The notes beneath the pieces are model-generated. The model ran no database searches, was not told the origin of the DNA, and saw only the letters and a list, made by a program, of their open reading frames with translations. The position numbers and the translations under genes were made by a program. This document shows positions 1 through 20,955 of a stretch of 64,000 bases of DNA, one piece after another (positions within the stretch are counted from its first letter, which is position 1; every line of letters starts with the position of its first letter). This DNA is from Candidatus Niyogibacteria bacterium (GTDB lineage: Bacteria; Patescibacteriota; Minisyncoccia; JACROR01), in assembly GCA_016214345.1 (NCBI GenBank), contig JACROR010000009.1, positions 66,447-130,446 on the forward strand, read 5' to 3'.

Positions 1-189
1 GTAGTCGGTAATGCCTTGAATTTTTCTGCCGGAACCAAAATTTATACCTGGAAAAAAGAAGAAGGCAAAATATCGTCCAAAGAATCCTCTCTGCCAAAAG
101 AGTCGCCCGCCGCTCCCAAATTAACCGAACGCAAACTCAAAGAATTATCGTGGAGTTTGGATATTTATAAAAGTTCACCCAAAGCATGA
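1..189 (+). CDS. 3' end of an upstream hypothetical protein (partial); its stop overlaps the next start (ATGA)
   Basis: Open frame running into the window and ending with TGA at 187-189; translational coupling with the VirB4-like N-fragment. Confidence 0.35.
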   Translation, partial: VVGNALNFSAGTKIYTWKKEEGKISSKESSLPKESPAAPKLTERKLKELSWSLDIYKSSPKA

Positions 190-830
190 GCCCATCCACC
201 CAACAAATAATTCCCATATCGGAAATACGAGACGACGTGATCACCCTTAAAGACGGGTCGCTCCGCATGATTCTTATGGCGTCCTCCATAAACTTCGCGT
301 TAAAATCCAAAGACGAACAGACGGCCATAATCTCCCAGTACCAATTTTTTTTAAACACCCTGGACTTCTCCATGCAATTTTTCATACAATCTTCCGAGTT
401 GGACATCAGTCCATATCTGGGATTGCTGAAAACGCAGGAAAAAACGCAAACCAATGAATTACTTAAGGTGCAAACCAGGGAGTACGCGGAATTTATAAAA
501 AATTTCGTGGAAGCTGCGCACATTATGTCCAAAACTTTTTACATTTCCGTCCCTTACACGCCCAACGCCATGAAAGCCGTTAGCGGAGGAATAAGCGGCA
601 TATTCCAAAACTTTATGGGCAAAAATAAAACCTCTGAAAAAATTTCCGGAGAACAATTTACGGAATATAAAAACCAGCTTTGGCAAAGAATGGACATTGT
701 CAGCTCCGGTCTGGCTCGTTGCGGCGTGCATACCGTGCCGCTTAAAACCGAAGAATTGATAGAATTATTTTACGGCATATACAACCCGGGAGAAATTGCT
801 ACGGGGCTTTTACCGGAAATCAAACAATAA
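186..830 (+). CDS. VirB4/PrgJ/TcpF-family ATPase, N-terminal part (split gene or separate N-domain protein)
   Basis: N-terminus IIPISEIRDDVITLKDGSLRMILMASSINFALKSKDEQ resembles the N-domain of Gram-positive VirB4-like conjugative ATPases; it is followed 4 nt later by the ATPase part. Confidence 0.5.
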   Translation: MSPSTQQIIPISEIRDDVITLKDGSLRMILMASSINFALKSKDEQTAIISQYQFFLNTLDFSMQFFIQSSELDISPYLGLLKTQEKTQTNELLKVQTREYAEFIKNFVEAAHIMSKTFYISVPYTPNAMKAVSGGISGIFQNFMGKNKTSEKISGEQFTEYKNQLWQRMDIVSSGLARCGVHTVPLKTEELIELFYGIYNPGEIATGLLPEIKQ

Positions 831-833
831 TTC

Positions 834-2651
834 ATGGCATTCTTAGACTTCTTAAAATCAAAAAAGAAAGGTGGGGAAGAAATTCTACCGGTGTACCCCT
901 CGGAAATATACGAGGCGGGCGCTCTGGAACTGAAAGACATATTGGCGCCTTCCGCTATAGAAGTTACCTCCAACTACATTAAACTGGGAGATAAGATAGC
1001 TAAAACTATATTTGTTTTCTCCTATCCGCGCTATCTATCCACGGATTGGTTTTCTCCGATCATCAACTTGGACCAAGTATTTAACATATCAATTTTCATA
1101 CATCCCATAAGCACGGAAACGGTATTAAAACAATTGCAAAATAAAGTGGCGGAGGTTCAATCGCAAACCAGCATACGCTCCGAAAAAGGTCTGGTGCGCG
1201 ATCCGATATTGGATACGGCGCTTCGCGATCTGGAAGTGCTCCGCGACAAACTGCAACAAGCGGAAGAAAAGCTTTTTAGCGTGGGAATTTATCTTACCAT
1301 ATTCGGGAAAACGCTTGAAGAATTGAACAATAATGAAGCTGAAATACGACACCTCCTGGAATCCAAACTGGTGCGCACCAAACCGGCATTATTCCAGCAA
1401 ATAGAAGGATTGGACAGCGTGCTCCCTTATAACACGGACAAACTTCAAGTTAATAGCAGACTGAATTCCGAACCGCTTTCCAGCATTTTCCCGTTCGTGT
1501 CTTCGGATCTTACTTCGGACAAAGGAATACTCTATGGGATCAACCGCCACAATAACAGTCTTATACTTTTTGATAGATTCAGCCTGGAAAATTACAATTC
1601 CGTTATTTTCGCCAAGTCCGGATCAGGAAAATCCTACACCACCAAGTTGGAAATTTTAAGATCGCTCATGTTCGGCGTAGACGTAATAGTCATAGATCCG
1701 GAACGGGAATACGAATACTTGGCCGAAGCGGTAGACGGGCGGCATATTAATATATCACTGACCTCAAAAAATCATATCAATCCCTTTGATCTTCCGGTGG
1801 CGCGCGAAGACGAATCCCCGGCGGACGTTTTACGGTCCCACATCATAAACCTGATCGGGCTATTCCGCATCATGTTGGGAGGATTAACTCCCCAAGAAGA
1901 CTCCCTCTTGGACCAGGCCATCGCGGAAACTTATGCTTCACGCGACATAACCGTAGAATCGGATTTTTCCAAAGCAACGCCGCCCATACTTTCAGACCTG
2001 GAAATGGTGCTGATGAGTACGGAAGGGGGAGAAAATCTCGCGCAACGGATGAAAAAATACACCATGGGCAGCTGGGCCGGATTTTTGAACCAACCCACTA
2101 ATATAGACATGAATAAAAATTTTATCGTCTTTTCCGTGCGCGACATGGAAGACGAATTAAAGCCCGTAGCCATGTATCTCATCACTCATTATATATGGAA
2201 TGCCGTGCGGTTAAATTTAAAAAAGCGCCTGCTCATCATTGATGAGGCGTGGTGGATGATGAAAACCGAAGACGGCGCGTCATTTCTTTTCGGCATGGCC
2301 AAAAGAGCGCGAAAATATTATCTGGGAGTCGCGACCATAACGCAGGACGTGGAAGATTTTTTAAAATCTCCTTACGGAAAACCCCTCATTACCAACTCCT
2401 CCATGCAACTTTTGCTCCGCCAGTCTCCGGCGGCGATTGATCGCTTGCAAGAAGTGATGAATTTGACCGACGAAGAAAAGTATTTGCTTTTGGAGGCGGA
2501 CATGGGGGAGGGAATATTTTTCGCGGGCTTAAAACATGTCGCCATAAAAGTACTCGCCTCTTATACCGAAGACCAAATTATAACCTCTGACCCGGGCCAG
2601 CTTATGGCCATAAAAAAAGCCAAGGAGGAATTCAAGCAAACGCAAAGCTAA
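834..2651 (+). CDS. VirB4/TraC/TrbE-family type IV secretion ATPase (C-terminal ATPase part)
   Basis: Walker A FAKSGSGKSYTTK, Walker B LLIIDEAWWMM (the DEAW motif typical of VirB4); 605 aa. Confidence 0.75.
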   Translation: MAFLDFLKSKKKGGEEILPVYPSEIYEAGALELKDILAPSAIEVTSNYIKLGDKIAKTIFVFSYPRYLSTDWFSPIINLDQVFNISIFIHPISTETVLKQLQNKVAEVQSQTSIRSEKGLVRDPILDTALRDLEVLRDKLQQAEEKLFSVGIYLTIFGKTLEELNNNEAEIRHLLESKLVRTKPALFQQIEGLDSVLPYNTDKLQVNSRLNSEPLSSIFPFVSSDLTSDKGILYGINRHNNSLILFDRFSLENYNSVIFAKSGSGKSYTTKLEILRSLMFGVDVIVIDPEREYEYLAEAVDGRHINISLTSKNHINPFDLPVAREDESPADVLRSHIINLIGLFRIMLGGLTPQEDSLLDQAIAETYASRDITVESDFSKATPPILSDLEMVLMSTEGGENLAQRMKKYTMGSWAGFLNQPTNIDMNKNFIVFSVRDMEDELKPVAMYLITHYIWNAVRLNLKKRLLIIDEAWWMMKTEDGASFLFGMAKRARKYYLGVATITQDVEDFLKSPYGKPLITNSSMQLLLRQSPAAIDRLQEVMNLTDEEKYLLLEADMGEGIFFAGLKHVAIKVLASYTEDQIITSDPGQLMAIKKAKEEFKQTQS

Positions 2652-2663
2652 AAACGAAAAGCG
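2648..2663. repeat. Left copy of a perfect 16-bp inverted repeat (CTAAAAACGAAAAGCG) bracketing the 2694-3089 gene
   Basis: Its reverse complement CGCTTTTCGTTTTTAG occurs at 3108-3123; degenerate back-to-back copies of the same motif lie at 26600-26672. Confidence 0.7.
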
Positions 2664-2693
2664 CAAAATAATAAAAACTATGATTCAAACGCG

Positions 2694-3089
2694 ATGAACG
2701 AAGAAGAGCAAATATCAACAGAACTACGAGCGGCGCAGCTGCAAAATATGAAAAAGGGTGGCGAGTCGGCAAAAAATCCTATGAAGCCCGTGGTATTTGC
2801 CCTATCTTTCCGTCAAAAAATATTAGAACATAAAATAATACTGATCACGGCGGCATTTTTTGATATCATCGCGATGATTCCCTTTGTAAGCATCGCAACC
2901 AACCCGGCGTTCGGCTTGATTTTATTCTTGTATTTTGGACCAAAAAGCAAGAAAGGGTCGGAATTTTTGAAAATCGCCCTGCCCACCGGCATAGGAACCA
3001 TTGCGGACACCGTAAGTAGCGCGATACCCTTCGCCGACCTTATACCTTTCAATATAGGCGTAGCGCTTATCAGAATAGCGCTTAGTTAA
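2694..3089 (+). CDS. Small integral membrane protein (3 predicted TM segments), hypothetical; part of the T4SS-like cluster
   Basis: Hydrophobic segments ILITAAFFDIIAMIPFVSIA, FGLILFLYFG and IPFNIGVALIRIAL; bracketed exactly by the 16-bp inverted repeats. Confidence 0.5.
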   Translation: MNEEEQISTELRAAQLQNMKKGGESAKNPMKPVVFALSFRQKILEHKIILITAAFFDIIAMIPFVSIATNPAFGLILFLYFGPKSKKGSEFLKIALPTGIGTIADTVSSAIPFADLIPFNIGVALIRIALS

Positions 3090-3107
3090 AAAAATAAATT
3101 GATTTTC

Positions 3108-3123
3108 GCTTTTCGTTTTTAGT
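3108..3123. repeat. Right copy of the 16-bp inverted repeat (CGCTTTTCGTTTTTAG)
   Basis: Perfect reverse complement of 2648-2663. Confidence 0.7.
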
Positions 3124-3167
3124 TATTAGTTTGTTTGGTATAATAATATTGTAAGATCATAAATCCA

Positions 3168-4184
3168 ATGACACTAAAACGCGAGACCATATTTATAATA
3201 TCCGGCGTCCTCCTTATGGCGGCGGGGCCTTTATCGCCAAAACTTATTTACGCTCAAGAAGCCTTGCCGCCATTCACAGGCACGAAACTTTTTTCCATAA
3301 AATTAACCCCGAATTATCCCAAACCAAACACCGCCGTAACGGCAGAAATCCTAACTTACCGCTTTGACGAAGATCGCGCCAATATTATTTGGCAAATAAA
3401 CGGCAAAACCGTAGCCCAAGGATTAGGAGTTAAAACCATAACGTTTCAGAGTCCGGACACGGGAAAAACCCAAAAAATAACCGCCTATGTAACTACGATA
3501 GAAGGCAATCAAGAAAGCCAATTGCTTAATTTAACCATACATGACGTGGATCTTCTCGTAGACGCGCTCACTTATGTTCCGCCCGGATACCGAGGCAAAG
3601 CCTGGCCCACCTTGCAATCCAGCATAAGAATATCGGCAATTCCATATCTTTTCAAAAATGGCAAAAAACTGCCGCCCGAAACCCTGATTTATGAATGGTC
3701 GTTTGATACCAAAAAAAATATACCGGCTTCCGGCGCCAATAAAGATTCTTTTGTGGCACAATTGCCAGACTCCGATGACTACCTCGTAACCTTAAAATTA
3801 TCCGACCAAGCGGACGAAATAAATTTTGAAAAAAGTATTATGTTAACTGCCAGAAAGACTTCCCCTGAAATTATCTTTTATGAAGATAATCCGCTGGAAG
3901 GGCCGATCTATGCCAAAGCGCTTTCCGGCGCCATAAAACTTAGCCAAGGCGCGATTAATCTGCGAGCTGAACCTTTTTATTTCTCTAAAGAAAATATTTC
4001 TGCCCTGACTTATGGGTGGAGCATGAATGACCAGCCGACGCCGACCGAAGAAAAGCCCAATGTTTTAAACTTGCGCGCTCCTGAAAATACTACCGGAGAA
4101 ACGGTAATAAATTTAACCATAAAAAACCTGTCGCGCCTCTTACAATCCGCGGACGCGACACTGCGTGTAATGTTCGGGCAATAA
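3168..4184 (+). CDS. Secreted or cell-surface protein with internal ~90-aa repeats (Ig-like?), hypothetical
   Basis: N-terminal signal/TM segment IFIISGVLLMAAGPL; repeated modules ending in ...LNLTIHD, ...IMLTAR and ...ATLRVMF. Confidence 0.45.
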   Translation: MTLKRETIFIISGVLLMAAGPLSPKLIYAQEALPPFTGTKLFSIKLTPNYPKPNTAVTAEILTYRFDEDRANIIWQINGKTVAQGLGVKTITFQSPDTGKTQKITAYVTTIEGNQESQLLNLTIHDVDLLVDALTYVPPGYRGKAWPTLQSSIRISAIPYLFKNGKKLPPETLIYEWSFDTKKNIPASGANKDSFVAQLPDSDDYLVTLKLSDQADEINFEKSIMLTARKTSPEIIFYEDNPLEGPIYAKALSGAIKLSQGAINLRAEPFYFSKENISALTYGWSMNDQPTPTEEKPNVLNLRAPENTTGETVINLTIKNLSRLLQSADATLRVMFGQ

Positions 4185-4190
4185 AAAAAT

Positions 4191-4940
4191 ATGAAATACT
4201 TTCCAAATAAAATCACGATTTTAACCATTATAGCCGCTGTTTTAGTATTGACGCCAATACTAACCTACGGATATACTTTTTTGGCGCCATTGCCCGGACT
4301 TGAAAAAACAATAGAAGGATCAAGCCTGTTCTCCGCATACCTTTCCGCCCTGTTTCGTTTTGCCATAGTAATAGCCTCCATACTGGCCGTAATAGTTATA
4401 ATAATCGCCGGACTGAAATACATAGGCGCCGCGGGCAATACCGCCGTCGTTAATGACGCCAAAGATCAAATATACTGGGCCGTTTTAGGACTCATTCTCG
4501 CGCTTTCTTCCTGGTTGATTTTAAGTATCATCAATCCTAAACTTTTAGTATTAAAACTGGGAGTAACCTCCACAAAGCTAATTCAAGCCCCAAACGCTGA
4601 AAGCCTGTTTTCCGGCGCTTATTGTGGTCAGTTCACAGAAAACAGCGCGTGCACCGCAGACGCTAGTTGCACCTGTAAATGCCTAGTCGGACAAGCGGCG
4701 GCAACAACTTGCAATAGCCTGAATCAGAGCGATTGCTCAGAAAATGCATATTGCAAATGGTGGTTCGCTTCAAACACATGTAACCCGCTAATAAAAGTTA
4801 AATGCCAATATAAAAATACCACCTTAAACTGCCAAACCGGACCTAAATGCGGCATATTTCCTGAGACAGATACACTGTGTTGTATGGGCTCTGCTGTGAA
4901 ATGTCAGCCATCTTCCGCAATTACCGTAACTCCGCAATAA
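4191..4940 (+). CDS. VirB2/TrbC-like pilin-type membrane protein fused to a cysteine-rich C-terminal extracellular domain
   Basis: Long signal-like N-terminus followed by two further hydrophobic helices (pilin-like topology), then ~110 aa containing 17 Cys (CGQFTENSACTADASCTCKC...). Confidence 0.4.
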   Translation: MKYFPNKITILTIIAAVLVLTPILTYGYTFLAPLPGLEKTIEGSSLFSAYLSALFRFAIVIASILAVIVIIIAGLKYIGAAGNTAVVNDAKDQIYWAVLGLILALSSWLILSIINPKLLVLKLGVTSTKLIQAPNAESLFSGAYCGQFTENSACTADASCTCKCLVGQAAATTCNSLNQSDCSENAYCKWWFASNTCNPLIKVKCQYKNTTLNCQTGPKCGIFPETDTLCCMGSAVKCQPSSAITVTPQ

Positions 4941-4945
4941 ATAAT

Positions 4946-6103
4946 ATGAACCGCAAAAAATTAATTATTATCATATCCGCCGCTTTAATCCTGATTATAT
5001 TGGGAGGGGTTTTAATTTATTATTTTTACATCAGAAGCGTGCCCGTAGCGCAAAGAGGCGTTATCGGCAGACTTTTCCCGACACCGACGGAAAAAATCGG
5101 TCCGTCATCCGCGACATCCGGACAAATTACGCCGCCGACAACCTCGGAAAAGGTAGGACAACTAGTCCACCTGACAGATATCGCGATAGCCGGCATGAAA
5201 GAAATGCCTTTTGGCCGAGCGCGATATATAGAAAAATCCACCGGCCATGTATATGAAATAAGCGGAGACGGATCCGACCGCGTGCGCGTTTCCAATACCA
5301 CCATACCCAAAATCTGGAGCGCTGAATGGTCGCCCAAGGGCGATAAGGCGGTGTTGGGCATTTTTGACGATGCGGGCATTAAGTACTTTTCCGCCATATT
5401 CAATGGCACGAGCACCGAAGGCGTATTTTTACCGGACAACGCCAATTTCGGATCATACGCGCCCAACCAAGATAAAATTCTTTACGCGACAACCTTAAAC
5501 GACAAAACAACTTTAATTACCGCGAATGCCAGCAATACCAAACAGGATAAACTTTATATTGCTCCGCCGGCAGAATTTTTGTTGGACTGGCCGGCAACTG
5601 ATACTGTTTCTCTACTAACCCGTCCCTCCGGAGCAGTCAGCGGTTTTCTTTATAACTTAGATATCAAAACAAAGGCTTTGGAAAAAATTGTTGGCGACAT
5701 CAAAGGATTGGACGCCTTGTGGTCAATCAAGGGCGATAAAATTTTAATCTCCGCGGGCGGAACAAGCCTTTCTTCGCGCGTGGTGTCTCTTACCGGAGAA
5801 ACCTTAGCCGAAGGACGAAAAACTCTTGCCGAAAAATGCGCGTGGAGCGCGTCAAAAGAAAACATTCTTTATTGCGCCATACCCACTCAAATTCCCAACG
5901 GCAATTATCCGGACGATTGGTTCAAGGGCAAAGCGTCTTTCCAAGATTATATTTTAAAAATAGACCTCTTAACGCAAGATATTACATTAATCCTTGCTCG
6001 ATCAACATTTGACATTCAAAAAATGTTAATAGGACAAGATGATAAATATCTTTATTTCATAGACAAAAATGACGGCACGCTTTGGGGGCTGAACATGGAA
6101 TAA
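4946..6103 (+). CDS. Membrane-anchored secreted protein, beta-propeller/TolB-like repeats, hypothetical
   Basis: Start chosen at MNRKKLIIIIS (N-terminal TM anchor); the ORF track opens earlier, at 4877. Confidence 0.45.
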   Translation: MNRKKLIIIISAALILIILGGVLIYYFYIRSVPVAQRGVIGRLFPTPTEKIGPSSATSGQITPPTTSEKVGQLVHLTDIAIAGMKEMPFGRARYIEKSTGHVYEISGDGSDRVRVSNTTIPKIWSAEWSPKGDKAVLGIFDDAGIKYFSAIFNGTSTEGVFLPDNANFGSYAPNQDKILYATTLNDKTTLITANASNTKQDKLYIAPPAEFLLDWPATDTVSLLTRPSGAVSGFLYNLDIKTKALEKIVGDIKGLDALWSIKGDKILISAGGTSLSSRVVSLTGETLAEGRKTLAEKCAWSASKENILYCAIPTQIPNGNYPDDWFKGKASFQDYILKIDLLTQDITLILARSTFDIQKMLIGQDDKYLYFIDKNDGTLWGLNME

Positions 6104-6120
6104 AACGCGATAATAAAAAT

Positions 6121-6150
6121 CTCCCGCTTTTATGGCGGGGAATTTTTATT
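6121..6150 (+). terminator. Rho-independent terminator after the T4SS-like cluster
   Basis: Stem CTCCCGC...GCGGGG followed by a T-run AATTTTTATT. Confidence 0.55.
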
Positions 6151-6162
6151 ATATCCTTTAAT

Positions 6163-6642
6163 TTAAATATATGGCTTAATAACCACGCGCCTTTCTTCTC
6201 CTTCTCCCATGCTTTCCGTAATTATGTCAGGATATTCGGTTAAGGCGCTGTGCACCACCCTCCTGTCATACGCGCTCATGGGTTGCATGACCACGGCTTT
6301 TTTAAAATACCTCACTCTTTGCGCGTGTATTTTTGCCAGATCCTTTAAAGACTCGTTTTTTTGCCGCTGATAATCATTCACATCCAAAAAAAACCGCACA
6401 TCCTCCCCCTCGGCAAGCGAACCGCTTTTTACTATTTTCTTAATCACATGATTCAAGGCCGCGAGTCCCGCCCCCTTATTACCTATAAGCATGCCGCCAT
6501 CTCTTACTCTCACGGCAAACTGGACCTCTTCCGAATGCAAAACGTCATCAACCGTAGCGTCAATTCCCATCTTACCGATGAGCTGTTGGATCGCTGTTTT
6601 TATTTCTTGAATGCGTTGTGATCGTTGATCTGTCTCGCCCAT
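6163..6642 (-). CDS. jag: Jag/KhpB RNA-binding protein (KH + R3H domains)
   Basis: C-terminal R3H motif VVMQPMSAYDRRVVHSAL...ESMGEGEERRVVIKP; conserved position next to yidC. The true start may be the internal MGIDATV (~6570), because the upstream part overlaps the yidC 3' end. Confidence 0.8.
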   Translation of the reverse strand: MGETDQRSQRIQEIKTAIQQLIGKMGIDATVDDVLHSEEVQFAVRVRDGGMLIGNKGAGLAALNHVIKKIVKSGSLAEGEDVRFFLDVNDYQRQKNESLKDLAKIHAQRVRYFKKAVVMQPMSAYDRRVVHSALTEYPDIITESMGEGEERRVVIKPYI

Positions 6643-7390
6643 ATTGTGATCTTAAAATGTTGGCCTGCCTGTCCGGTAGGCGGGCCCGACGCCGAACCGT
6701 ACTTTCATGCACTATAGCAAAAATATTCGTAGTCGTCCAGTACAACGAAACCACGGCAGGAAAGCTCATGGATATAAACGCTATGAATGCCGGCAAAACA
6801 TACGTGGTTTGCAGGCGCATGGCGCGCGAAAAATCAGACTGAAAAGATTTTACTTCTCCCTTTTTTGGCGGCAAAGGGGGTTGCGCGAGGCGCATTTGCA
6901 CAAATTGCGAGATTCCCGCCAACAGCGCGAAAACCAGGCTCGGTTTTTGCAGATCAAGCAATCCGAAAAAATTCATATTTATGGTTTCCGGTCTTGTCAC
7001 AAAAAAATACAACTCATTGGCGGAAAAATCCAAACCGCGCCAAAAAAGATAATAAAGGGCTATGAGGATCGGAAGCTGAACCAAAGCCACCAAGCAACCG
7101 GACAAGGGATTAACACCATGCTCCTTGTAAAGCTCCATGGTGCGCTTAGCCTGCTCTTCTTTATTATCCTTGTACTTATCACGCAGCGCCGCCATGTGCG
7201 GCTCCAATTCTTTCATTTTAACCTGCGCGCGAACGGATTTATGCGTTAACGGAAACAGGGCGATCCTTACCAATACGGTAAGCGCCACAACCGCCAGGCC
7301 CATATCGTGTCCGGGCATGATATCCACCAAAAAAACCAGGGCGTTGAAAAGCGGACGATAAAGAAATTCGTTATAAATAAAATAAAACAT
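6572..7390 (-). CDS. yidC: Membrane protein insertase YidC/Oxa1 family (short form)
   Basis: Conserved YidC TM core (LFPLTHKSVRAQVKMKELEPHMAALRDKYKDN..., PLSGCLVALVQLPILIALYY); the 45-aa C-terminal tail runs through a dispersed palindromic repeat. Confidence 0.85.
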   Translation of the reverse strand: MFYFIYNEFLYRPLFNALVFLVDIMPGHDMGLAVVALTVLVRIALFPLTHKSVRAQVKMKELEPHMAALRDKYKDNKEEQAKRTMELYKEHGVNPLSGCLVALVQLPILIALYYLFWRGLDFSANELYFFVTRPETINMNFFGLLDLQKPSLVFALLAGISQFVQMRLAQPPLPPKKGEVKSFQSDFSRAMRLQTTYVLPAFIAFISMSFPAVVSLYWTTTNIFAIVHESTVRRRARLPDRQANILRSQYGRDRSTITTHSRNKNSDPTAHR

Positions 7391-7393
7391 GGT

Positions 7394-7606
7394 TTATGCC
7401 AAATGATCAATTTGCGGATCCTGCCAGGGATGGCAACGCAAAATGCGCCTGACTCCTAAAAAATTCCCGCGCATTACGCCGTATTTTTGCAGCGCCAACA
7501 AATAATATTCCGAACATGACGGATAAAAAACACAGTGTCCTGGCCATTTTAATATTCCGCGGACGTATTGATAAATTTTCACCCAAAAAATAAAAAAATA
7601 TTTCAT
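7394..7606 (-). CDS. yidD: Membrane protein insertion efficiency factor YidD
   Basis: YidD signature VFYPSCSEYYLLALQKYGVMRGNFLGVRRILRCHPWQ. Confidence 0.85.
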   Translation of the reverse strand: MKYFFIFWVKIYQYVRGILKWPGHCVFYPSCSEYYLLALQKYGVMRGNFLGVRRILRCHPWQDPQIDHLA

Positions 7607-7615
7607 GTTGCAATA

Positions 7616-7969
7616 TTATTGGACGATTGGCGCAGAGGCAAGTCCGGACATTTTAAATAAATCTAAAATGTTTTTTAATAATTGCGCGCGCGACAACTCC
7701 GCGGCTCCGCTTTTAAAAACCAAAATAACGGCGTAACCGTCTTTAATATTGAAAAGGTTTTCCCTAATGATGGAATACGCCCGACGGCGTAACTTATTTC
7801 TCAAAATGGCCCTTTTAGAAACCTTTAAAGAAATTACACAAGCAAACCGACCGGGACCTTTGCTCGGCACAAAAAATAAGTGAATGAAATGACTGAATGT
7901 TCTTTGGCCTGACCGATAAATAACCTCAAAATTTTTTCTGCCGCTGATCTTGCGGCTCTTAGGCAGCAT
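7616..7969 (-). CDS. rnpA: RNase P protein component
   Basis: 117 aa, basic; conserved position between rpmH and yidD; RnpA-like sequence KRAILRNKLRRRAYSIIRE. Confidence 0.85.
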   Translation of the reverse strand: MLPKSRKISGRKNFEVIYRSGQRTFSHFIHLFFVPSKGPGRFACVISLKVSKRAILRNKLRRRAYSIIRENLFNIKDGYAVILVFKSGAAELSRAQLLKNILDLFKMSGLASAPIVQ

Positions 7970-7977
7970 ATTTTTTA

Positions 7978-8112
7978 TTACGCCGCGAGTTTCTTACGTC
8001 CTTTATGGCGTCTTTGTTTCAAAATGGCGCGTCCGTTAGAGGTTTTGCTCCTTTTTAAAAAACCGTGCGTGCGCGCTCGTTTTCTTTTTTTGGGTTGATA
8101 AGTTATAGACAT
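7978..8112 (-). CDS. rpmH: 50S ribosomal protein L34
   Basis: Absent from the ORF track (44 aa). Manual translation [44 protein letters not shown] matches the L34 consensus. Confidence 0.85.
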
Positions 8113-8310
8113 AAAATTTTATTAAAAACTGACGTTTAACGCCGACACCGTAAGGATTTATTTATTATACAACATACAAATTAAAAAACAATATTCACAA
8201 GTAATCCACATATTAGTAACATTCTATTAGGGTTTGGCGTGAAAATGTCTATTTGTGCGAAGACCGTGATGATTAGTATAATAATCCTATATTAATATTT
8301 TAAAAAAATC
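8113..8310. promoter_or_regulatory. AT-rich rpmH/dnaA divergent intergenic region; possible oriC part with degenerate DnaA boxes
   Basis: Near-consensus box TAATCCACA around 8203; AT-rich. Confidence 0.35.
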
Positions 8311-9264
8311 ATGACCAATCAAGAATTATGGAAAGCGGCATTGGGCGAAATTGAACTGGAACTTTCTAAGGCCAACTTCCTGACTTGGTTTAAAAATACG
8401 GCCATAGCGGATCAAAAAGAGGGGGTGATAACCGTAAGCGTGCCGAACACCTTCATAAAAGAATGGATGGAAGATAAATATCATAAATTAATTCTAAAAT
8501 CGCTTCGCAATTATTCCCGAGACATACGCAATATAGAATATAACATCTCATCGGATCTTTTAACGGGCGCGCCAAAAACCAACAAAGCCAAAGATGTCGG
8601 AAAAGAACCGCCCGCTCCGGAAAGCCAGCTTGAATTCAAAGAATTTCAAATAGACAAAGAAACCAACCTTAACCCGCGCTACACTTTTGAAACTTTCATT
8701 GTCGGTGAATTCAATGAAATGGCTCATGCCGCTTCGCTGTCCATAACTAAAAATTTAGGCCGCCTTTATAATCCACTCTTTATTTATGGCGGAGTTGGTT
8801 TGGGCAAAACGCACCTGACCCAGGCGTTAGGCAACGCCATCAAACAAAGCGACCCGGACATCAAAATCAAGTATTTAAGTTCTGAAAAATTCGCCAGCGA
8901 CTTTGTTTCGGCAATGCAAAATGCCGAAATTCCGGAATTCAAAACCAAGCATCGCAAATATGACGTTTTGATACTGGATGACGTGCAATTTTTAGCCAGT
9001 AAAATGAAAGTGCAGGAAGTATTTTTTGATATCTTCAACGAGCTTTATGACAACAATAAACAAATTATCTTATCGGCCGATCGTCCACCCAAGTCATTTA
9101 AAGAACTGGAAGAGCGAATACGGTCCCGCTTTGAAGGGGGGCTTATGGTTCACATCTCGGAACCGGACTACGAATCGCGCCTGGCCATCTTGAAAGCAAA
9201 GGCTGAAGCCAAAAAATTCAACCCGTCCAATGAAATACTTGAATTTATAGCGTCATACATCTAA
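8311..9264 (+). CDS. dnaA: Chromosomal replication initiator DnaA (N-terminal domain plus AAA+ domain), apparently truncated
   Basis: DnaA N-domain and AAA+ motifs GGVGLGKTHL and VLILDDVQF; the ORF stops at 317 aa, immediately after ...ILEFIASYI, before domain IV. Confidence 0.85.
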   Translation: MTNQELWKAALGEIELELSKANFLTWFKNTAIADQKEGVITVSVPNTFIKEWMEDKYHKLILKSLRNYSRDIRNIEYNISSDLLTGAPKTNKAKDVGKEPPAPESQLEFKEFQIDKETNLNPRYTFETFIVGEFNEMAHAASLSITKNLGRLYNPLFIYGGVGLGKTHLTQALGNAIKQSDPDIKIKYLSSEKFASDFVSAMQNAEIPEFKTKHRKYDVLILDDVQFLASKMKVQEVFFDIFNELYDNNKQIILSADRPPKSFKELEERIRSRFEGGLMVHISEPDYESRLAILKAKAEAKKFNPSNEILEFIASYI

Positions 9265-9432
9265 GAGAGGATTTTAACGGATCTTATCCCTACATAGGCC
9301 AAAAATTCGGAGGAAGAGACCACACTACGGCTATTCACTCTTATTTAAAAGTTGCCCAGGATATAAAAAAGGGGGGGAGGGTTGTGGAAGAAATAAAAAC
9401 CATACGAGAAAATCTTTACAATACCGTTTAAT
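9243..9432 (+). other. dnaA: Out-of-frame DnaA C-terminal fragment (domain IV signature helix)
   Basis: Translation in a second frame gives ...DFNGSYPYIGQKFGGRDHTTAIHSYLKVAQDIKKGGRVVEEIK...*, which contains the DnaA signature GGRDHTT. About 95 aa of DnaA (end of domain III plus the HTH start) are missing between the two pieces. Confidence 0.7.
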
Positions 9433-18001: not shown

Positions 18002-18190
18002 AAATTTAGAAGCGAGCTTTGCACTTTTAAGTCTCTGGGTGATACCATCGCAAGGTGGCAGGACTTTCTTTTAAGGGCAATCTGGCTCTCCACTTCTTGT
18101 GGCAGAACCGCTGGACCGCTCCTTTGGGAAAGCTCTAAGCTATTGGTCAACTCAATTAGTATATTGCCCGGAGACTTAAAGGTGCTATTC
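18002..18190 (+). ncRNA. Candidate structured small RNA (~185 nt; 6S-like size and closing helix; family unassigned)
   Basis: Predicted TSS ~7 nt after the -10; 5' palindrome CTTCTAAATTTAGAAG; 19-bp long-range helix 18021-18039 with 18167-18185 carrying two U-G pairs that are valid only on the + strand; no coding potential; convergent with pilB. Confidence 0.4.
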
Positions 18191-19855
18191 TCCTAAAACT
18201 CGGCGCATTTCTTCAACACTGGTTTTGCCATCTAAAATTTTTAATGCCGCGTCTTGTTCCATGGTCAGCATATTTTGATGTTTGGCCAATTTTTTGTATT
18301 CGGATTCTGGCGGATTTTCAAGGATAAGACGCTGCGCTTCGTCGTCAATACTAAATGCTTCATATACTCCGATCCTCCCTTTATAGCCCATATTGTTACA
18401 AGCGTCGCATCCTTTTGCTTTCCAAAGTTCAAGTTTATCCAAAGGGGGTTTTTTAATCGTTTCCGGAAGTTCGGCTAACTTTTTTTTCAAAAATTCTATT
18501 TCTTCGGCGGTGGCCTTTTCCTTCTTTTTACATTTTTCGCATAAAACTCTCAATAGCCGCTGCGCCATGGATACGCTTACGGCCGGACCAATAGTGTTGG
18601 GAGTCGCGCCCAGATCAATCAATCTTGGTACTGTGCCAAAAGCATTGTTGGTATGAAGCGTGGAAAAAACCAGATGCCCCGTGAGCGCGGCGTTTAACGC
18701 GGTTTTGGCCGTTGCCAAATCTCTTATTTCGCCCACCAATATAACATCCGGGTCTTGTCTTAGAACCGCTCGCAGAGCATCCGCGAAATCATAATTCTTG
18801 CTAAGATCTATTTGCGATTGATTTATGCCCGCGATATGGTATTCCACGGGGTTTTCTATGGTGATAATTTTTATCTCCGGAGAAAGGATTTTTTTTATAA
18901 AAGCGTAAAGCGTGGTAGTTTTTCCCGATCCGGTAGGTCCGGTGGTAAGGATCATGCCGTTTGGTTTATTTATCGCTTTTTCTATGATTTTGCGCAGGCT
19001 TTCGTGCATGCCCAGATTTTCAAATGAAACATCGATGGCTTTTGGATGAAGCACTCTTAGCACTATGGATTCTCCGTAAGCTCCCGGAAGGCTTGAAGCG
19101 CGCACTTCCACGTCCGTATCATTTATGCGTATGGTGAAGCGTCCGTCTTGCGGGCGGTCGGCGACATTTAACTTCATTTCTCCTATAAGTTTAATGCGGG
19201 ATAAGAGCAGCTTGTAGACGCTGTCGGGGAAATTTATAATGTCATTTAATACGCCGTCCAGGCGAAATCTTAGTTTGGCTTCATTTTCTTGCGGCTCAAT
19301 ATGAATATCGGACGCTTCCAAGGCGTATGCTCCGGCTAAAATCGCTTCCACCATGCTGGATGCCGTGCGAAGTTGCCGCGCGGAGATGATCGGAGCCAAC
19401 AATTCTTTAAAATTATTTATATTGGTTATTTTGGCGATATATCCCGCCAAATGCTCTTTGGAAATACTGATGAGTCCGGCCGCAACCTCTTCAAATTCCG
19501 GAACTTCGCTATAGCGGCTCCAGGCCCGCTGTAAGCTGGTTTCGGAAACCATAAAAATGGTAAGTTCGTATGCCTCGTCTTTCAGGCGAGTTGTGATTTG
19601 TAGGGTTTGCGGCAATTCCGGATTGCGTACGGCAACGCTTATTTTTTTCCCCACTTTTTGGAAAATCGCGATTTCTCCTTCGCGCGCTTCTTTTTCGGGT
19701 AAAATTTTTAAAGCATCCAGCTCTATATTGATCCTGGAAAGATCCAGATAGGGCAGTTTATATTTTTGAGACAATATTTGGGCGAGGTCTTCGGCCTCTT
19801 TTTTTTTGATGCTTTCTATGCGTTCTTCCTGATTTTTTTCGTTAAACTCCGACAT
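18185..19855 (-). CDS. pilB: Type IV pilus assembly ATPase PilB/GspE family
   Basis: Walker [11 protein letters not shown], GspE_N domain, C-terminal Zn-binding CxxC...CxxC. Confidence 0.85.
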
Positions 19856-19869
19856 TCTTCCATGGTAGC

Positions 19870-20955
19870 TTAAAGGGTTGCTTGAAGCAATTGGCGAAGT
19901 TTTCTTTCCGCTTCGGTAAAATTGCCGTAGTCCGGCAAGGGAAGCATATTGTCTTTTGAGATTTTATCCAGCTTGGCGGAAAGGGCGGATAGTATTTTTT
20001 CTTGTTCGGAAAACAGCAATCCTTTTACCGCGCCACCCTTCTCTTTCCAGAGAAATAAATGGCAGTTTTGTTCCGGGGAGATCTTCAAGAATGAGTTAAA
20101 CAACGCGATAAATAAATTTTGTGAAGGAGGCGTGCGGGTTTTTTCAAAATCTTGTTCGGTTAAAAATGTCCATGAAGTTCCGGTATTTTTATCCACATGC
20201 GTTCGGGCGAGCGCCCTTCCCAAGAGTTGCCGGTCAGGAGTTTCCGTGAATTGTATTTTTTTTATCTGGTCGCGATCCGCTCCGTATTCCATCAGTTGAC
20301 TGGCCAGGCTTAAGGCGTCTTTGGATGCGCGTTCCAAAAAATTATTGGTTTCCAAGACCAAGCAGGCGAAAAGCAGAGTAGCCACGGTTTTGTTTTGAAA
20401 TATTTTTTCATCCAAAGTTTTTATGATCTCCGCGACTTTTTCGGCCATCAGGCGTCCTTGCGGCGAGATCGTGGCGATAAATTCTTCTGCCGGCAAGTCA
20501 TAGCGCTCTTTAAGGCGGTCTAGATTATTTTCATCGGAGAAAAAGCAAAATGCCGATTCAATTTTAGGGGGAGCATTTTCTATGATTATTTCGTTCGTAT
20601 TGATCTGTCCGGAAGCCGGAGTTATTAAAAAATTTAAAAACCTATCGTTTTCATCGTAACTCACCTCGGCAATTTTATTTTTTTTCGGAATTTTTATTTT
20701 AAGAACTTGCGGCGCGGCTTGTGTTGGCGGCGTTTTTCGCGCGAGCGCCTCCTCCCATTTTACAAAAAGTCCGTTGGCATCTCCGTCATCCGTAATGTTT
20801 TTGCCAGCCATAACTAAGCCGGTTTTCAGCGCTTCTTTGGCCAAATATCCGGCTTCTTTTGGTTCGGTTCCCGCGAATATACCGATCTCTTTTTTGGCAA
20901 GCAGGGTTTGTATTTTTTGCAGTACTTCTTTGTTCATTATTCTGATATATAACAC
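19870..20955 (-). CDS. Hypothetical protein, possibly a degenerate DHH/DHHA1 phosphoesterase-like
   Basis: Weak DHH-like motif VATLLFACLVLETNNF and KGGAVKGLLFS; no catalytic DHH residues recognised. Confidence 0.3.
   Translation of the reverse strand: MLYIRIMNKEVLQKIQTLLAKKEIGIFAGTEPKEAGYLAKEALKTGLVMAGKNITDDGDANGLFVKWEEALARKTPPTQAAPQVLKIKIPKKNKIAEVSYDENDRFLNFLITPASGQINTNEIIIENAPPKIESAFCFFSDENNLDRLKERYDLPAEEFIATISPQGRLMAEKVAEIIKTLDEKIFQNKTVATLLFACLVLETNNFLERASKDALSLASQLMEYGADRDQIKKIQFTETPDRQLLGRALARTHVDKNTGTSWTFLTEQDFEKTRTPPSQNLFIALFNSFLKISPEQNCHLFLWKEKGGAVKGLLFSEQEKILSALSAKLDKISKDNMLPLPDYGNFTEAERKLRQLLQATL

What the first reader, a model, noticed from the sequence alone, without database searches (positions are those of the whole stretch)
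186..6150. T4SS/conjugation-like cluster: split VirB4 ATPase plus pilin-like protein carrying a Cys-rich ectodomain, next to the origin
The VirB4-family ATPase (Walker A/B, DEAW) is encoded as two adjacent ORFs of 214 aa and 605 aa, separated by 4 nt. Downstream lie a small 3-TM protein, a secreted repeat protein, a VirB2/TrbC-like three-helix membrane protein fused to a ~110-aa domain with 17 cysteines, and a membrane-anchored beta-propeller protein. The cluster ends in a terminator. No VirD4, relaxase or VirB6 is visible in the window, so this is not an obvious conjugative element. It may be a surface filament or host-attachment apparatus of the kind proposed for episymbiotic CPR bacteria. 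A pilin with a disulfide-rich tip-like domain is unusual.
Basis: partly seen in the sequence, partly recalled or inferred. Interest (0 to 1): 0.55.

Follow-up and report, generated by a model that had tools for sequence, protein, structure and literature searches.

The report
Origin-proximal CPR type IV secretion operon
This is the chromosomal type IV secretion-like gene cluster that ultra-small CPR/Patescibacteria keep next to their replication origin, a system already described in 2023-2025 papers; its one locally unusual feature is a very fast-evolving, cysteine-rich outer domain on the pilin-like protein.

Summary
Window 1-6103 (+) holds the 3' two-thirds of a conserved 11-gene operon: PrgI/VirB3 (cut by the window start), a 214-aa TrsD-like protein, a 605-aa VirB4 ATPase, a small membrane protein, a secreted 3-repeat protein, a VirB2-like pilin (PF18895) with a 125-aa tail carrying 15 Cys, and a membrane-anchored beta-propeller protein. 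A hairpin terminator and jag-yidC-yidD-rnpA-rpmH|dnaA follow.

A VirB6 homologue lies just upstream of the window. The cluster sits beside yidC/dnaA in 47/49 species, so it is vertically inherited and not a mobile element.

All of this matches the Patescibacteria T4SS of Quinonero-Coronel 2025 and Wang 2023, so the system itself is known.

I did not find the pilin tail described. It is a sharply bounded hypervariable cassette, 36% identical where VirB4 is 95.5% identical, and an orphan in 1.84 billion proteins. Across species it is replaced by unrelated modules, including a VanY peptidase. Function is inferred, not shown.

The parts
1..189 (+). 3' end (62 codons) of a PrgI/VirB3-like small membrane protein gene; its start lies upstream of the window
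   Evidence: The frame-1 ORF ends at TGA 187-189 and overlaps ATG 186. The full 134-aa gene in L001, a contig with an identical 214-aa protein, hits Pfam PrgI PF12666. The L002 orthologue scores 40.1 bits against a cut-off of 27.
186..830 (+). TrsD-like protein (Pfam PF26593 'TraC-like'): the VirB4 N-terminal region encoded as a separate 214-aa protein
834..2651 (+). VirB4-family T4SS ATPase (605 aa; remainder of the N-terminal region plus the P-loop ATPase domain)
   Evidence: NCBIfam CD1110 family 382.9 bits (cut-off 325), query residues 30-570 on profile positions 184-733 of 752. Pfam P-loop_TraG 95.8 bits. PDB 4ag5 E 1.7e-45 and TrwK E 1.7e-6. Walker A and B motifs are in the sequence.
2694..3089 (+). 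Small membrane protein with 2-3 hydrophobic segments, family unknown
   Evidence: Hydrophobic segments at about residues 43-82 and 115-130. No Pfam or NCBIfam hit. Most related loci carry an ORF of about 110-400 aa (mostly 130-250) with 2-5 hydrophobic segments in the same slot, although only 26 match by HMM.
3168..4184 (+). Secreted or membrane-anchored protein with three ~100-aa repeats, probably Ig-like beta-sandwiches
   Evidence: N-terminal hydrophobic segment. The family is present in 79 loci. One invariant Trp per repeat (W75, W177, W284). The profile gives only weak PDB hits, all to Ig-like domains (Hoc E 0.002).
4191..4565 (+). VirB2-like pilin core: signal peptide plus two membrane helices
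   Evidence: Pfam T4SS_pilin PF18895 32.7 bits (cut-off 26.6), residues 51-114. NCBIfam Mbov_0395 pilin-like E 3.1e-6. 53 of 67 syntenic orthologues hit PF18895.
4566..4940 (+). Hypervariable C-terminal tail of the pilin: about 125 aa with 15 Cys; predicted to lie outside the cell
   Evidence: Cys positions 145-238. Only 3 hits in 1.84 billion representative proteins, one of them the protein itself. Segment 4567-4948 is the only break in an otherwise collinear ~80% nucleotide match to L002. Tail 35.6% identical against 71.8% for the core and 95.5% for VirB4.
4946..6103 (+). Membrane-anchored beta-propeller protein (385 aa)
   Evidence: AF2 model pLDDT 81: helix 3-31, disordered 31-70, all-beta 73-385. 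Foldseek PDB hits are WD40, TolB and Lp49 propellers at E 1e-8 to 5e-10. The family is present in 67 loci, always at the 3' end of the operon.
6122..6140 (.). Terminator-like GC-rich hairpin with T-runs on both strands, between the convergent operon and jag
   Evidence: Pattern scan: 2 sites found against 0.6 +/- 0.8 in shuffles. This is a consensus match only.

Best explanation
The region is the downstream part of the chromosomal, vertically inherited Patescibacteria-type type IV secretion system. This system derives from the monoderm MPF_FATA conjugation machinery. The host genome is a Paceibacteria member; the identical 214-aa protein is filed under Candidatus Niyogibacteria.

Shown:
- The full operon in relatives is u312, u1070 (a large variable surface protein), VirB6-like, u223, PrgI/VirB3, TrsD, VirB4, a small membrane protein, a 3-repeat secreted protein, a VirB2-like pilin with a variable tail, and a TM+beta-propeller protein.
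- The operon lies beside jag-yidC-yidD-rnpA-rpmH | dnaA-dnaN.
- The two-ORF VirB4 is the conserved TrsD + short-VirB4 arrangement, as in pGO1-type Gram-positive systems.

Inferred mechanism:
- VirB3 and TrsD dock the VirB4 hexamer at the membrane on a VirB6 platform.
- VirB4 extracts the Sec-inserted pilin from the membrane and polymerises it into a tube or short conduit through the cell wall toward the host cell.
- The pilin's C-terminal tail, here a disulfide-rich 125-aa domain, sits on the outside of that structure. There it acts as a fast-evolving contact, specificity or protective module.
- The machine is not used for conjugation. It supports the host-dependent lifestyle through export of effectors and/or uptake of host macromolecules. 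The substrate is unknown.
For: Identity of the parts:
- VirB4.
- TrsD as the VirB4 N-terminal region: collinear profile matches, full-length hhalign to S. aureus TrsD (E 0.003), and fold matches to TrwK.
- PrgI.
- Pilin.
- VirB6: 12 of 37 members of the upstream family hit Pfam TrbL/VirB6, best E 8.6e-8.
- Propeller.

Conservation and vertical inheritance:
- Near-invariant gene order in 80 species.
- TrsD and VirB4 are separate ORFs in 80/80 species.
- yidC and dnaA are adjacent in 47/49 loci with enough downstream DNA.
- The VirB6-like gene is present in 52/52 loci with enough upstream DNA.

No conjugation genes: no relaxase or T4CP among the large ORFs of the 64-kb window.

Same order in pGO1-type plasmids: small CagC-family (annotated T4SS pilin-like) protein, an unnamed ORF in the TrsC position, TrsD, a 670-aa DUF87 (TrsE-like) ATPase.

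Literature:
- PMC12102498 describes this clade, including TrsD next to VirB4, VirB2-like pilins, absence of a relaxase, and proximity to dnaA, dnaN, rnpA, ksgA and rpmH in Paceibacteria.
- The T4SS and its pilins are essential for epibiotic growth of S. epibionticum (PMC10633639).
- Tubular structures that may be T4SS pili were seen at a parasite-host interface (bioRxiv 10.64898/2026.06.21.733656).

Surface exposure of the tail:
- The topology (signal peptide, then a two-helix hairpin) puts the C-terminus outside the cell.
- There are 15 Cys in the tail, against 0 in VirB4, p131 and p338 and 1 in TrsD.
- Divergence rises from cytoplasmic to extracytoplasmic parts and is greatest in the tail.
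Against: - No experiment exists for any Paceibacteria T4SS. Essentiality and pili are known only from Saccharimonadia and from one preprint.
- Polymerisation of a pilin carrying a tail of 125 aa (up to about 460 aa in relatives) is unproven. The protein could be a membrane-anchored display protein instead.
- No VirB8-like or VirB1-like component was recognised in the operon by sequence.
- A T4CP elsewhere in the genome cannot be excluded, because only 64 kb were seen.
- The matches of the 214-aa piece to TrsD and VirB4 profiles are all below curated cut-offs. hhalign probabilities against single sequences are low. The assignment rests on the fold match, the collinearity and the gene position taken together.
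- The fold searches do not report which part of TrwK was aligned, so 'N-terminal' comes from the sequence profiles, not from the structure comparison.
Confidence: 0.8

Rival explanations
1. The machine is primarily an import device. It would be a VirB4-driven conduit that takes up host DNA, RNA or nucleotides, like the archaeal Ced/Ted systems or H. pylori ComB, rather than exporting anything. This rival concerns direction and substrate, not what the parts are.
For: - There are weak matches of the ATPase to the Ced DNA-import ATPases CedB (E 1.3e-10) and CedD (E 7.4e-5).
- No T4CP or relaxase is nearby.
- Patescibacteria lack nucleotide synthesis, and a 2026 preprint links VirB4 to macromolecule transfer in an RNA-feeding parasite.
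- PMC12102498 reports that 37 patescibacterial VirB4s group with archaeal homologues and that the T4SS sits with competence genes in the ABY1 class.
Against: - The CedB and CedD scores are far below their cut-offs (40.6 against 700, 21.6 against 600). The best family by far is the conjugative CD1110 type.
- No CedA-like channel protein was recognised.
- In S. epibionticum, ComEC-dependent DNA uptake is dispensable while the T4SS is essential, which separates the two functions without identifying the T4SS substrate (PMC12857230).
Confidence: 0.2
2. The pilin-like protein does not polymerise. Its VirB2-like hairpin would be only a membrane anchor that displays a variable ectodomain (adhesin, enzyme or shield) on the cell surface, and the T4SS would have no pilus, like ordinary Gram-positive systems.
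For: - Tails reach about 460 aa and include an enzyme domain (VanY, E 4e-12, in L078) and coiled-coil-like regions, which are hard to fit on every subunit of a helical pilus.
- Gram-positive MPF_FATA systems generally lack pili (PMC12102498).
Against: - The core passes the Pfam pilin model in 53 of 67 species and sits at a fixed place in the T4SS operon.
- 11 of 71 orthologues have almost no tail (under 40 aa), so they look like plain pilins.
- Pilins are essential in the Saccharibacteria system, and tubes have been seen at a host interface.
- As far as I recall from the F-pilus literature, the C-terminus of F-type pilin is at the outer surface and tolerates added peptides. This rests on my own knowledge and was not checked here.
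Confidence: 0.25
3. The cluster is the transfer module of an integrated conjugative element, or a decaying remnant of one, and the two-ORF VirB4 is a frameshifted pseudogene.
For: The best-scoring families are conjugative ones (CD1110 family, mycoplasma ICE VirB4 and pilin-like protein). The closest plasmid hits are conjugative plasmids.
Against: - The same 11-gene order lies beside yidC/dnaA in 47/49 species, spanning several candidate orders.
- The 214-aa protein has 3058 homologues; the 120 best-scoring listed are all about the same length, and it is 89% identical to its nearest relative.
- TrsD and VirB4 are separate ORFs in 80/80 species.
- No relaxase, T4CP or integrase was found among the large ORFs of the window.
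- VirB4 is 95.5% identical between the two closest genomes, which indicates strong purifying selection.
Confidence: 0.03

Closest known systems
Patescibacteria-clade T4SS (Quinonero-Coronel et al. 2025, PMC12102498; S. epibionticum SEML1_0006-0019, Wang et al. 2023, PMC10633639)
   Same: - VirB4 of MPF_FATA type.
- A separate TrsD next to virB4.
- PrgI/VirB3 and VirB6.
- A VirB2-like PF18895 pilin inside the cluster.
- No relaxase nearby.
- Chromosomal position beside dnaA, dnaN, rnpA, rpmH and ksgA, which that paper reports for Paceibacteria.
   Different: - There is one pilin here, not an array of 2-11 divergent pilins as in Saccharimonadia and Microgenomatia.
- Variation seems to be concentrated in a C-terminal tail of that single pilin. 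The papers I read do not mention such a tail.
- The conserved partners p338, p385, u312, u1070 and u223 are unnamed there, as far as I could see.
Trs/Tra transfer system of staphylococcal pGO1/pSK41-type plasmids (MPF_FATA subclass)
   Same: The order is the same: a small VirB3-position protein, then TrsD (224 aa), then a short VirB4 (670 aa). A small CagC-family pilin-like gene lies upstream. hhalign aligns the CPR protein to TrsD over nearly its full length (E 0.003).
   Different: - pGO1 is a conjugative plasmid with a relaxase, a T4CP and a CHAP hydrolase (TrsG).
- Here none of these is recognisable, and the cluster is a fixed chromosomal operon.
- The similarity to TrsD is weak (24.2 bits against a cut-off of 200).
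- No similarity was found between p338 and the ORF downstream of the ATPase in L087 (TrsF position), or between the CPR pilin and the staphylococcal CagC-like protein.
VirB2/TraA/TrbC conjugative pilins of Gram-negative T4SSs (T-pilus, F-pilus)
   Same: Signal peptide followed by a hydrophobic helical hairpin. The gene lies in a T4SS cluster with VirB3, VirB4 and VirB6. 2 of 67 orthologues also hit Pfam TrbC/VirB2.
   Different: Classical pilins are short and carry no folded extra domain. This one has a 125-aa tail with 15 Cys, and its relatives have tails from about 0 to 460 aa. The organism is a monoderm with no VirB7, VirB9 or VirB10 outer-membrane core.
Archaeal Ced/Ted DNA-import systems
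   Same: A VirB4-family ATPase used outside conjugation, with pilus-like filaments and no relaxase. Weak CedB and CedD profile matches.
   Different: The scores are far below the family cut-offs. No CedA-type component was found. The direction of transport here is unknown.

Membership tests
VirB4/TraC family T4SS ATPase (NCBIfam NF045971 CD1110 type; MPF_FATA) | Profile score above the curated cut-off | tested here: met
   382.9 bits against a cut-off of 325; query 30-570 on profile 184-733 of 752. Pfam P-loop_TraG 95.8 bits against 25.8.
VirB4/TraC family T4SS ATPase (NCBIfam NF045971 CD1110 type; MPF_FATA) | Walker A and Walker B motifs, and homology to a solved VirB4 ATPase domain | tested here: met
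   KSGSGKSY and LLIIDEAW are in the sequence. PDB 4ag5 E 1.7e-45; TrwK E 1.7e-6.
VirB4/TraC family T4SS ATPase (NCBIfam NF045971 CD1110 type; MPF_FATA) | N-terminal region and ATPase domain in one ~750-800-aa polypeptide | tested here: not met
   The first ~130-180 profile positions are encoded by the separate 214-aa ORF. This is so in 80/80 related species.
VirB4/TraC family T4SS ATPase (NCBIfam NF045971 CD1110 type; MPF_FATA) | Hexameric ATPase that binds VirB3 and energises assembly | not testable with these tools
   Needs biochemistry or a multimer prediction.
TrsD/TraD family (NCBIfam NF041427) / Pfam PF26593 TraC-like | Profile score above the curated cut-off | tested here: inconclusive
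   NF041427 scores only 24.2 bits against a cut-off of 200. The protein database's precomputed Pfam annotation gives PF26593 for this protein and all 120 listed homologues. PF26593 gave no hit in the Pfam scan I ran, possibly because it is absent from that copy.
TrsD/TraD family (NCBIfam NF041427) / Pfam PF26593 TraC-like | ~200-aa protein encoded between a VirB3-like gene and a short VirB4 | tested here: met
   PrgI, 214-aa ORF, VirB4 in the window and in 80 species. The same order is seen in S. aureus pUSA08-1.
TrsD/TraD family (NCBIfam NF041427) / Pfam PF26593 TraC-like | Structural resemblance to VirB4 (N-terminal region) | tested here: met
T4SS pilin, VirB2-like (Pfam PF18895) | Score above the Pfam gathering threshold | tested here: met
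   32.7 bits against 26.6, residues 51-114.
T4SS pilin, VirB2-like (Pfam PF18895) | Signal peptide plus two hydrophobic helices; gene inside a T4SS cluster | tested here: met
   Hydrophobic segments at 3-32, 44-87 and 93-121. The gene has a fixed position in the operon.
T4SS pilin, VirB2-like (Pfam PF18895) | Small protein consisting essentially of the hairpin | tested here: not met
   A 125-aa Cys-rich tail follows the core. The median tail in 71 syntenic pilins is 172 aa.
T4SS pilin, VirB2-like (Pfam PF18895) | Polymerises into an extracellular filament | not testable with these tools
   Needs EM or biochemistry.
Patescibacteria-clade T4SS (PMC12102498) | VirB4 inside the monophyletic Patescibacteria clade nested in MPF_FATA | not tested
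   No tree was built. Indirect support: the best profile families are MPF_FATA types, and the named sources of the TrsD homologues and related loci are almost all CPR/Patescibacteria.
Patescibacteria-clade T4SS (PMC12102498) | TrsD, VirB3/PrgI, VirB6 and a VirB2-like pilin near virB4 | tested here: met
   VirB6 and the start of PrgI lie upstream of the window and were seen in relatives and in L001.
Patescibacteria-clade T4SS (PMC12102498) | No relaxase or T4CP in the neighbourhood; position near dnaA in Paceibacteria | tested here: met
   Only the ten largest other ORFs of the 64-kb window were scanned, so small or distant genes are not excluded.
Conjugative element (ICE or plasmid transfer module) | Relaxase, T4CP and a variable or mobile genomic location | tested here: not met
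   None was found. The location is fixed beside yidC/dnaA in 47/49 species.

The most novel reading that the evidence does not exclude
The single pilin of the Paceibacteria T4SS may be a modular 'carrier'. It would have a conserved VirB2-like core that builds the filament, and a freely exchangeable C-terminal cassette displayed on its surface. The cassette seen here is a 15-Cys orphan domain. Elsewhere it is coiled-coil-like, proline-rich, a VanY peptidase or a weak CHAP-like match. On this reading the cassette decides which host envelope the epibiont can bind or breach. That would be a one-gene alternative to the multi-pilin arrays of Saccharibacteria, and a pilin that carries its own cell-wall enzyme or adhesin. 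I did not find this described for T4SS pilins in the library searched.
Probability: 0.3. Interest if true: 0.6.

Novelty: new member of a known kind. Interest (0 to 1): 0.3.

Why it matters
The cluster itself adds nothing new. It is one more instance of the Patescibacteria T4SS, whose composition, lack of a relaxase and origin-proximal position were published in 2025, and whose essentiality was shown in 2023.

Two things could matter.

First, there is now a concrete 11-gene parts list for the largest CPR class. It includes five conserved proteins with no family assignment: a 3-repeat secreted protein, a TM+propeller protein, a large variable surface protein, a Ca-repeat membrane protein and a proline-rich cytoplasmic protein.

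Second, nearly all rapid change is concentrated in one sharply bounded cassette at the pilin's C-terminus. If that cassette sets host range, it gives a sequence marker for host specificity in uncultured Paceibacteria. It also gives a direct handle for experiments, such as swapping tails or raising antibodies to them.

Tried and rejected
- **Frameshift explanation of the split VirB4.** Rejected: the split is conserved in 80/80 species, and the best 120 of 3058 homologues are all about 210-240 aa.
- **FtsK/HerA-type ATPase instead of VirB4.** Rejected by the profile and PDB results.
- **Word-indexed homology search with the Cys-rich tail.** It found nothing. The exhaustive HMMER search found only the protein itself and two others.
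- **Concatenated p338+p385 query**, meant to save a search. As a result p338, the pilin and the tail could not be modelled with an alignment.
- **Diversity-generating retroelement as the source of tail variation.** There is no copy of the tail elsewhere in the window, and no reverse transcriptase (the only YxDD ORF is DNA polymerase I). The tails also differ in length and kind, which does not fit DGR action. A PF05635 four-helix-bundle gene (the family that, to my knowledge, includes DGR Avd proteins) lies just upstream in L001, a contig with an identical 214-aa protein, but with no template repeat.
- **Metagenome scan for close relatives of the pilin core**, to see strain-level tail swapping. 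The best hit was only 54% identical.
- **Profile searches of the u312 and VirB6-like families against the PDB.** These gave only a Ca-binding repeat and coiled-coil noise.
- **hhalign of p338 against the ORF downstream of the ATPase in L087 (TrsF position), and of the pilin family against the staphylococcal CagC-like protein.** No signal.
- **Exact-sequence look-up of the 605-aa VirB4.** Not on record. Upstream context had to come from L001 and from relatives.

Full report
**1. What is in the sequence**

- 186-830 (214 aa)
- 834-2651 (605 aa)
- 2694-3089 (131 aa)
- 3168-4184 (338 aa)
- 4191-4940 (249 aa)
- 4877-6103, which most probably starts at ATG 4946 and is 385 aa, as in its relatives

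Small corrections are needed:
- The two VirB4-related ORFs are 3 nt apart, not 4.
- The pilin-like protein has 15 Cys, not 17, all in residues 145-238.
- A further gene runs off the left edge of the window. It ends at 189 and overlaps the 214-aa ORF by ATGA.

Downstream on the minus strand lie jag, yidC, yidD, rnpA and rpmH, followed by dnaA and dnaN on the plus strand. The GC skew changes sign at about 8-10 kb. The cluster therefore does abut the replication origin. A GC-rich hairpin with T-runs on both strands lies at 6122-6140, between the convergent operon and jag. This is a pattern match only.

**2. Identity of the ATPase and the "split"**

The 605-aa protein is a VirB4:
- It scores 382.9 bits on NCBIfam NF045971 (VirB4-like, CD1110 family; cut-off 325), matching profile positions 184-733 of 752.
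- It hits Pfam P-loop_TraG, AAA_10 and DUF87.
- It matches the solved VirB4 ATPase domain 4ag5 at E 1.7e-45 and R388 TrwK at 1.7e-6.
- Walker A and Walker B motifs are present.

The 214-aa protein matches only weakly, but collinearly, the N-terminal ends of VirB4 models:
- CD1110 profile positions 1-131, E 9.7e-6
- mycoplasma ICE VirB4 positions 103-276, E 2.9e-7
- the TrsD/TraD family, E 2.5e-5

All three are below the curated cut-offs. On Pfam TraC_F_IV the two ORFs cover positions 19-173 and 272-372 respectively.

The 214-aa protein has 3058 homologues. The best 120 are all 209-239 aa and all carry Pfam PF26593 "TraC-like".

In 80 of 80 related species the two proteins are separate ORFs. 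The same arrangement occurs in a staphylococcal pGO1-type plasmid: a small ORF in the VirB3/TrsC position, TrsD of 224 aa, then a 670-aa VirB4-like ATPase.

So the split is an old, conserved gene organisation and not a frameshift. It is already described. [quoted passage not shown]

**3. The rest of the operon and its context**

A contig with an identical 214-aa protein (L001) shows that the gene cut by the window start is a 134-aa PrgI/VirB3-family protein.

I fetched the neighbourhood in the closest relative (L002), in Giovannonibacteria (L004-L006), and in 80 further species (L007-L086). I mapped families with iterated HMMs. The order is almost invariant:

u312, u1070, u632, u223, PrgI, TrsD, VirB4, (small membrane protein), p338, pilin, p385, then (jag) yidC ... 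dnaA.

Supporting counts:
- 47 of 49 loci with enough downstream DNA carry yidC and dnaA.
- 52 of 52 loci with enough upstream DNA carry u632.

The individual families:
- **u632** is polytopic, and 12 of its 37 sampled members hit Pfam TrbL/VirB6 (best E 8.6e-8). VirB6 is therefore present but lies just outside the window.
- **u1070** has a conserved ~320-aa N-terminal domain. Its C-terminal parts vary and carry Ig-like, discoidin and chitobiase-C domains in some species.
- **u312** has one membrane helix and a Ca-binding TSP3-type repeat.
- **u223** is a proline-rich protein with no hydrophobic segment.
- **p338** has three ~100-aa repeats, each with an invariant Trp. Its only PDB profile hits are weak and are all to Ig-like domains.
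- **p385** is modelled with pLDDT 81 as a membrane helix, a disordered linker and a beta-propeller.
- **The slot after VirB4** holds an ORF of about 110-400 aa (mostly 130-250) with 2-5 hydrophobic segments in most species, though its sequence diverges fast.

No VirD4-type coupling protein or relaxase is among the ten largest other ORFs of the window. Those are PilB-like T2SSE, Pol I, EF-G, EF-Tu, RtcB, a Mur ligase, SecY, RuvB, a class I (Trp/Tyr-type) tRNA synthetase and a PBP.

A fixed position beside the origin across many species excludes a mobile element.

**4. Comparison with what is known**

The literature search found that the system has been described.

Quinonero-Coronel et al. 2025 (PMC12102498) report the following:
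- VirB4 in 2,417 of 3,035 Patescibacteria genomes, forming a clade nested in MPF_FATA
- TrsD, PrgI/VirB3, VirB6 and VirB2-like pilins (PF18895, PF04956) near virB4
- almost no relaxases
- T4CP genes mostly elsewhere in the genome
- in Paceibacteria, proximity to dnaA, dnaN, rnpA, ksgA and rpmH

Wang et al. 2023 (PMC10633639) showed by Tn-seq that the T4SS genes and their pilins are essential for epibiotic growth of S. epibionticum. A 2025 review calls these systems unique among monoderms for that essentiality and for their pilins (PMC12857230). A 2026 preprint shows tubular structures that may be T4SS pili at a parasite-host interface.

**5. The pilin tail**

The core, residues ~28-125, passes Pfam T4SS_pilin (32.7 bits against 26.6). 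The topology is a signal peptide followed by a helical hairpin, which should place the C-terminal tail outside the cell.

The tail stands out in four ways:
1. It has 15 Cys in 94 residues, while VirB4, p131 and p338 have none and TrsD has one.
2. It is an orphan. The word-indexed search found nothing. Exhaustive HMMER over 1.84 billion representatives found only the protein itself, one 298-aa pilin with a 39%-identical tail, and one weak 145-aa hit. These share a C-x5-C-x-W-x5-6-C motif.
3. Protein identities to the closest genome, L002, fall steeply toward the tail:

   | Protein | Identity to L002 |
   |---|---|
   | VirB4 | 95.5% |
   | TrsD | 88.8% |
   | YidC | 86.8% |
   | p131 | 77.9% |
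   | p338 | 74.6% |
   | p385 | 71.6% |
   | pilin core | 71.8% |
   | pilin tail | 35.6% |

   At the DNA level the two genomes align collinearly at ~80% over 2-4566 and 4949-8999. The only break is 4567-4948, which is exactly the tail.
4. Across the 71 syntenic pilins analysed, tail length ranges from about 0 to about 460 aa, with a median of 172. 24 tails are Cys-rich. The 60 tails of at least 40 aa fall into 47 BLASTP clusters, 41 of them singletons. One tail is a VanY D-Ala-D-Ala carboxypeptidase domain (L078, E 4e-12), and another has a weak CHAP match.

The papers I read do not mention these tails. I found no sign of a diversity-generating retroelement and no closer relatives in the metagenome collection.

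**6. Mechanism**

Shown: the identities, order and conservation of the parts.

Inferred from the established R388 and F-type architecture:
- VirB3 and TrsD tether the VirB4 hexamer to the membrane on VirB6.
- VirB4 extracts the pilin from the membrane and polymerises it.
- The tail decorates the outer surface. The divergence gradient suggests it is the part under strongest diversifying pressure, whether from host recognition, from evasion, or, where it is an enzyme, from action on a cell wall.

Substrate and direction are unknown. Export of effectors and import of host macromolecules both remain open. Whether a pilin with such a tail polymerises at all is also untested.

**7. Verdict**

Interest is modest and rests on the hypervariable pilin cassette and on the unnamed conserved partners.

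Noticed in passing
window 8311-9430: dnaA looks broken. The ORF is only 317 aa. Compared with the 456-aa DnaA of L002, about 254 nt (codons ~318-401) are missing, and the C-terminal domain IV remnant continues in another frame. This is either a MAG assembly error or a real lesion in an essential gene.
   Followed up: partly
L078 13595-14734; L061 15106-16092; L076 and L080 pilin genes: In some species the operon's VirB2-like pilin core is fused to a cell-wall enzyme domain. L078 has VanY, a D-Ala-D-Ala carboxypeptidase (E 4e-12). L061 has a weak CHAP match (E 0.003). The L076 and L080 tails carry an SxHxxGxAxD-like motif that I read by eye as peptidase-M15-like, but they have no Pfam hit.
   Followed up: partly
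L001 242-619 (a contig with an identical 214-aa protein, about 250 nt upstream of window position 1): A 125-aa four-helix-bundle gene (Pfam 23S_rRNA_IVP, PF05635) is inserted between u223 and PrgI; it is absent at that place in L002. Members of the same family sit at various positions in or near the operon in L010, L020, L027, L045, L052, L071, L075 and L080. It looks like a sporadically inserted small gene. No DGR-type template repeat was seen.
   Followed up: partly
L002 3737-6946 and orthologues (upstream of the window): The large secreted operon protein u1070 has a conserved ~320-aa N-terminal domain with invariant cysteines. Its C-terminal part varies between species and carries Ig-like, F5/8 type C and chitobiase-C domains in a few of them. 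Two members hit DUF4141. It is a second variable surface component of the same system.
   Followed up: partly
window 1-6103 relative to the origin at about 9.3-9.7 kb: The whole T4SS operon is on the plus strand left of the skew switch, so it is transcribed toward the origin. That makes it head-on to the replication fork, whereas jag-yidC-rnpA-rpmH are co-directional. The orientation relative to yidC and dnaA is the same in all related loci. The published idea of a gene-dosage benefit does not address this.
   Followed up: no
window 18185-19855 (-) and 19870-20955 (-): A PilB/GspE-type T2SSE ATPase (389 bits, with an MshEN domain) lies next to a 360-aa ORF with no Pfam hit. This may be part of a type IV pilus system, a second surface-filament machine, within 12 kb of the T4SS operon.
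   Followed up: partly
window 4566-4940; P0128; P0129: The Cys-rich tail and its only two relatives share a repeated ~22-aa motif, C-x5-C-x-W-x5-6-C. P0128 also carries one copy inserted just after the pilin's signal peptide. No Pfam family covers it.
   Followed up: partly
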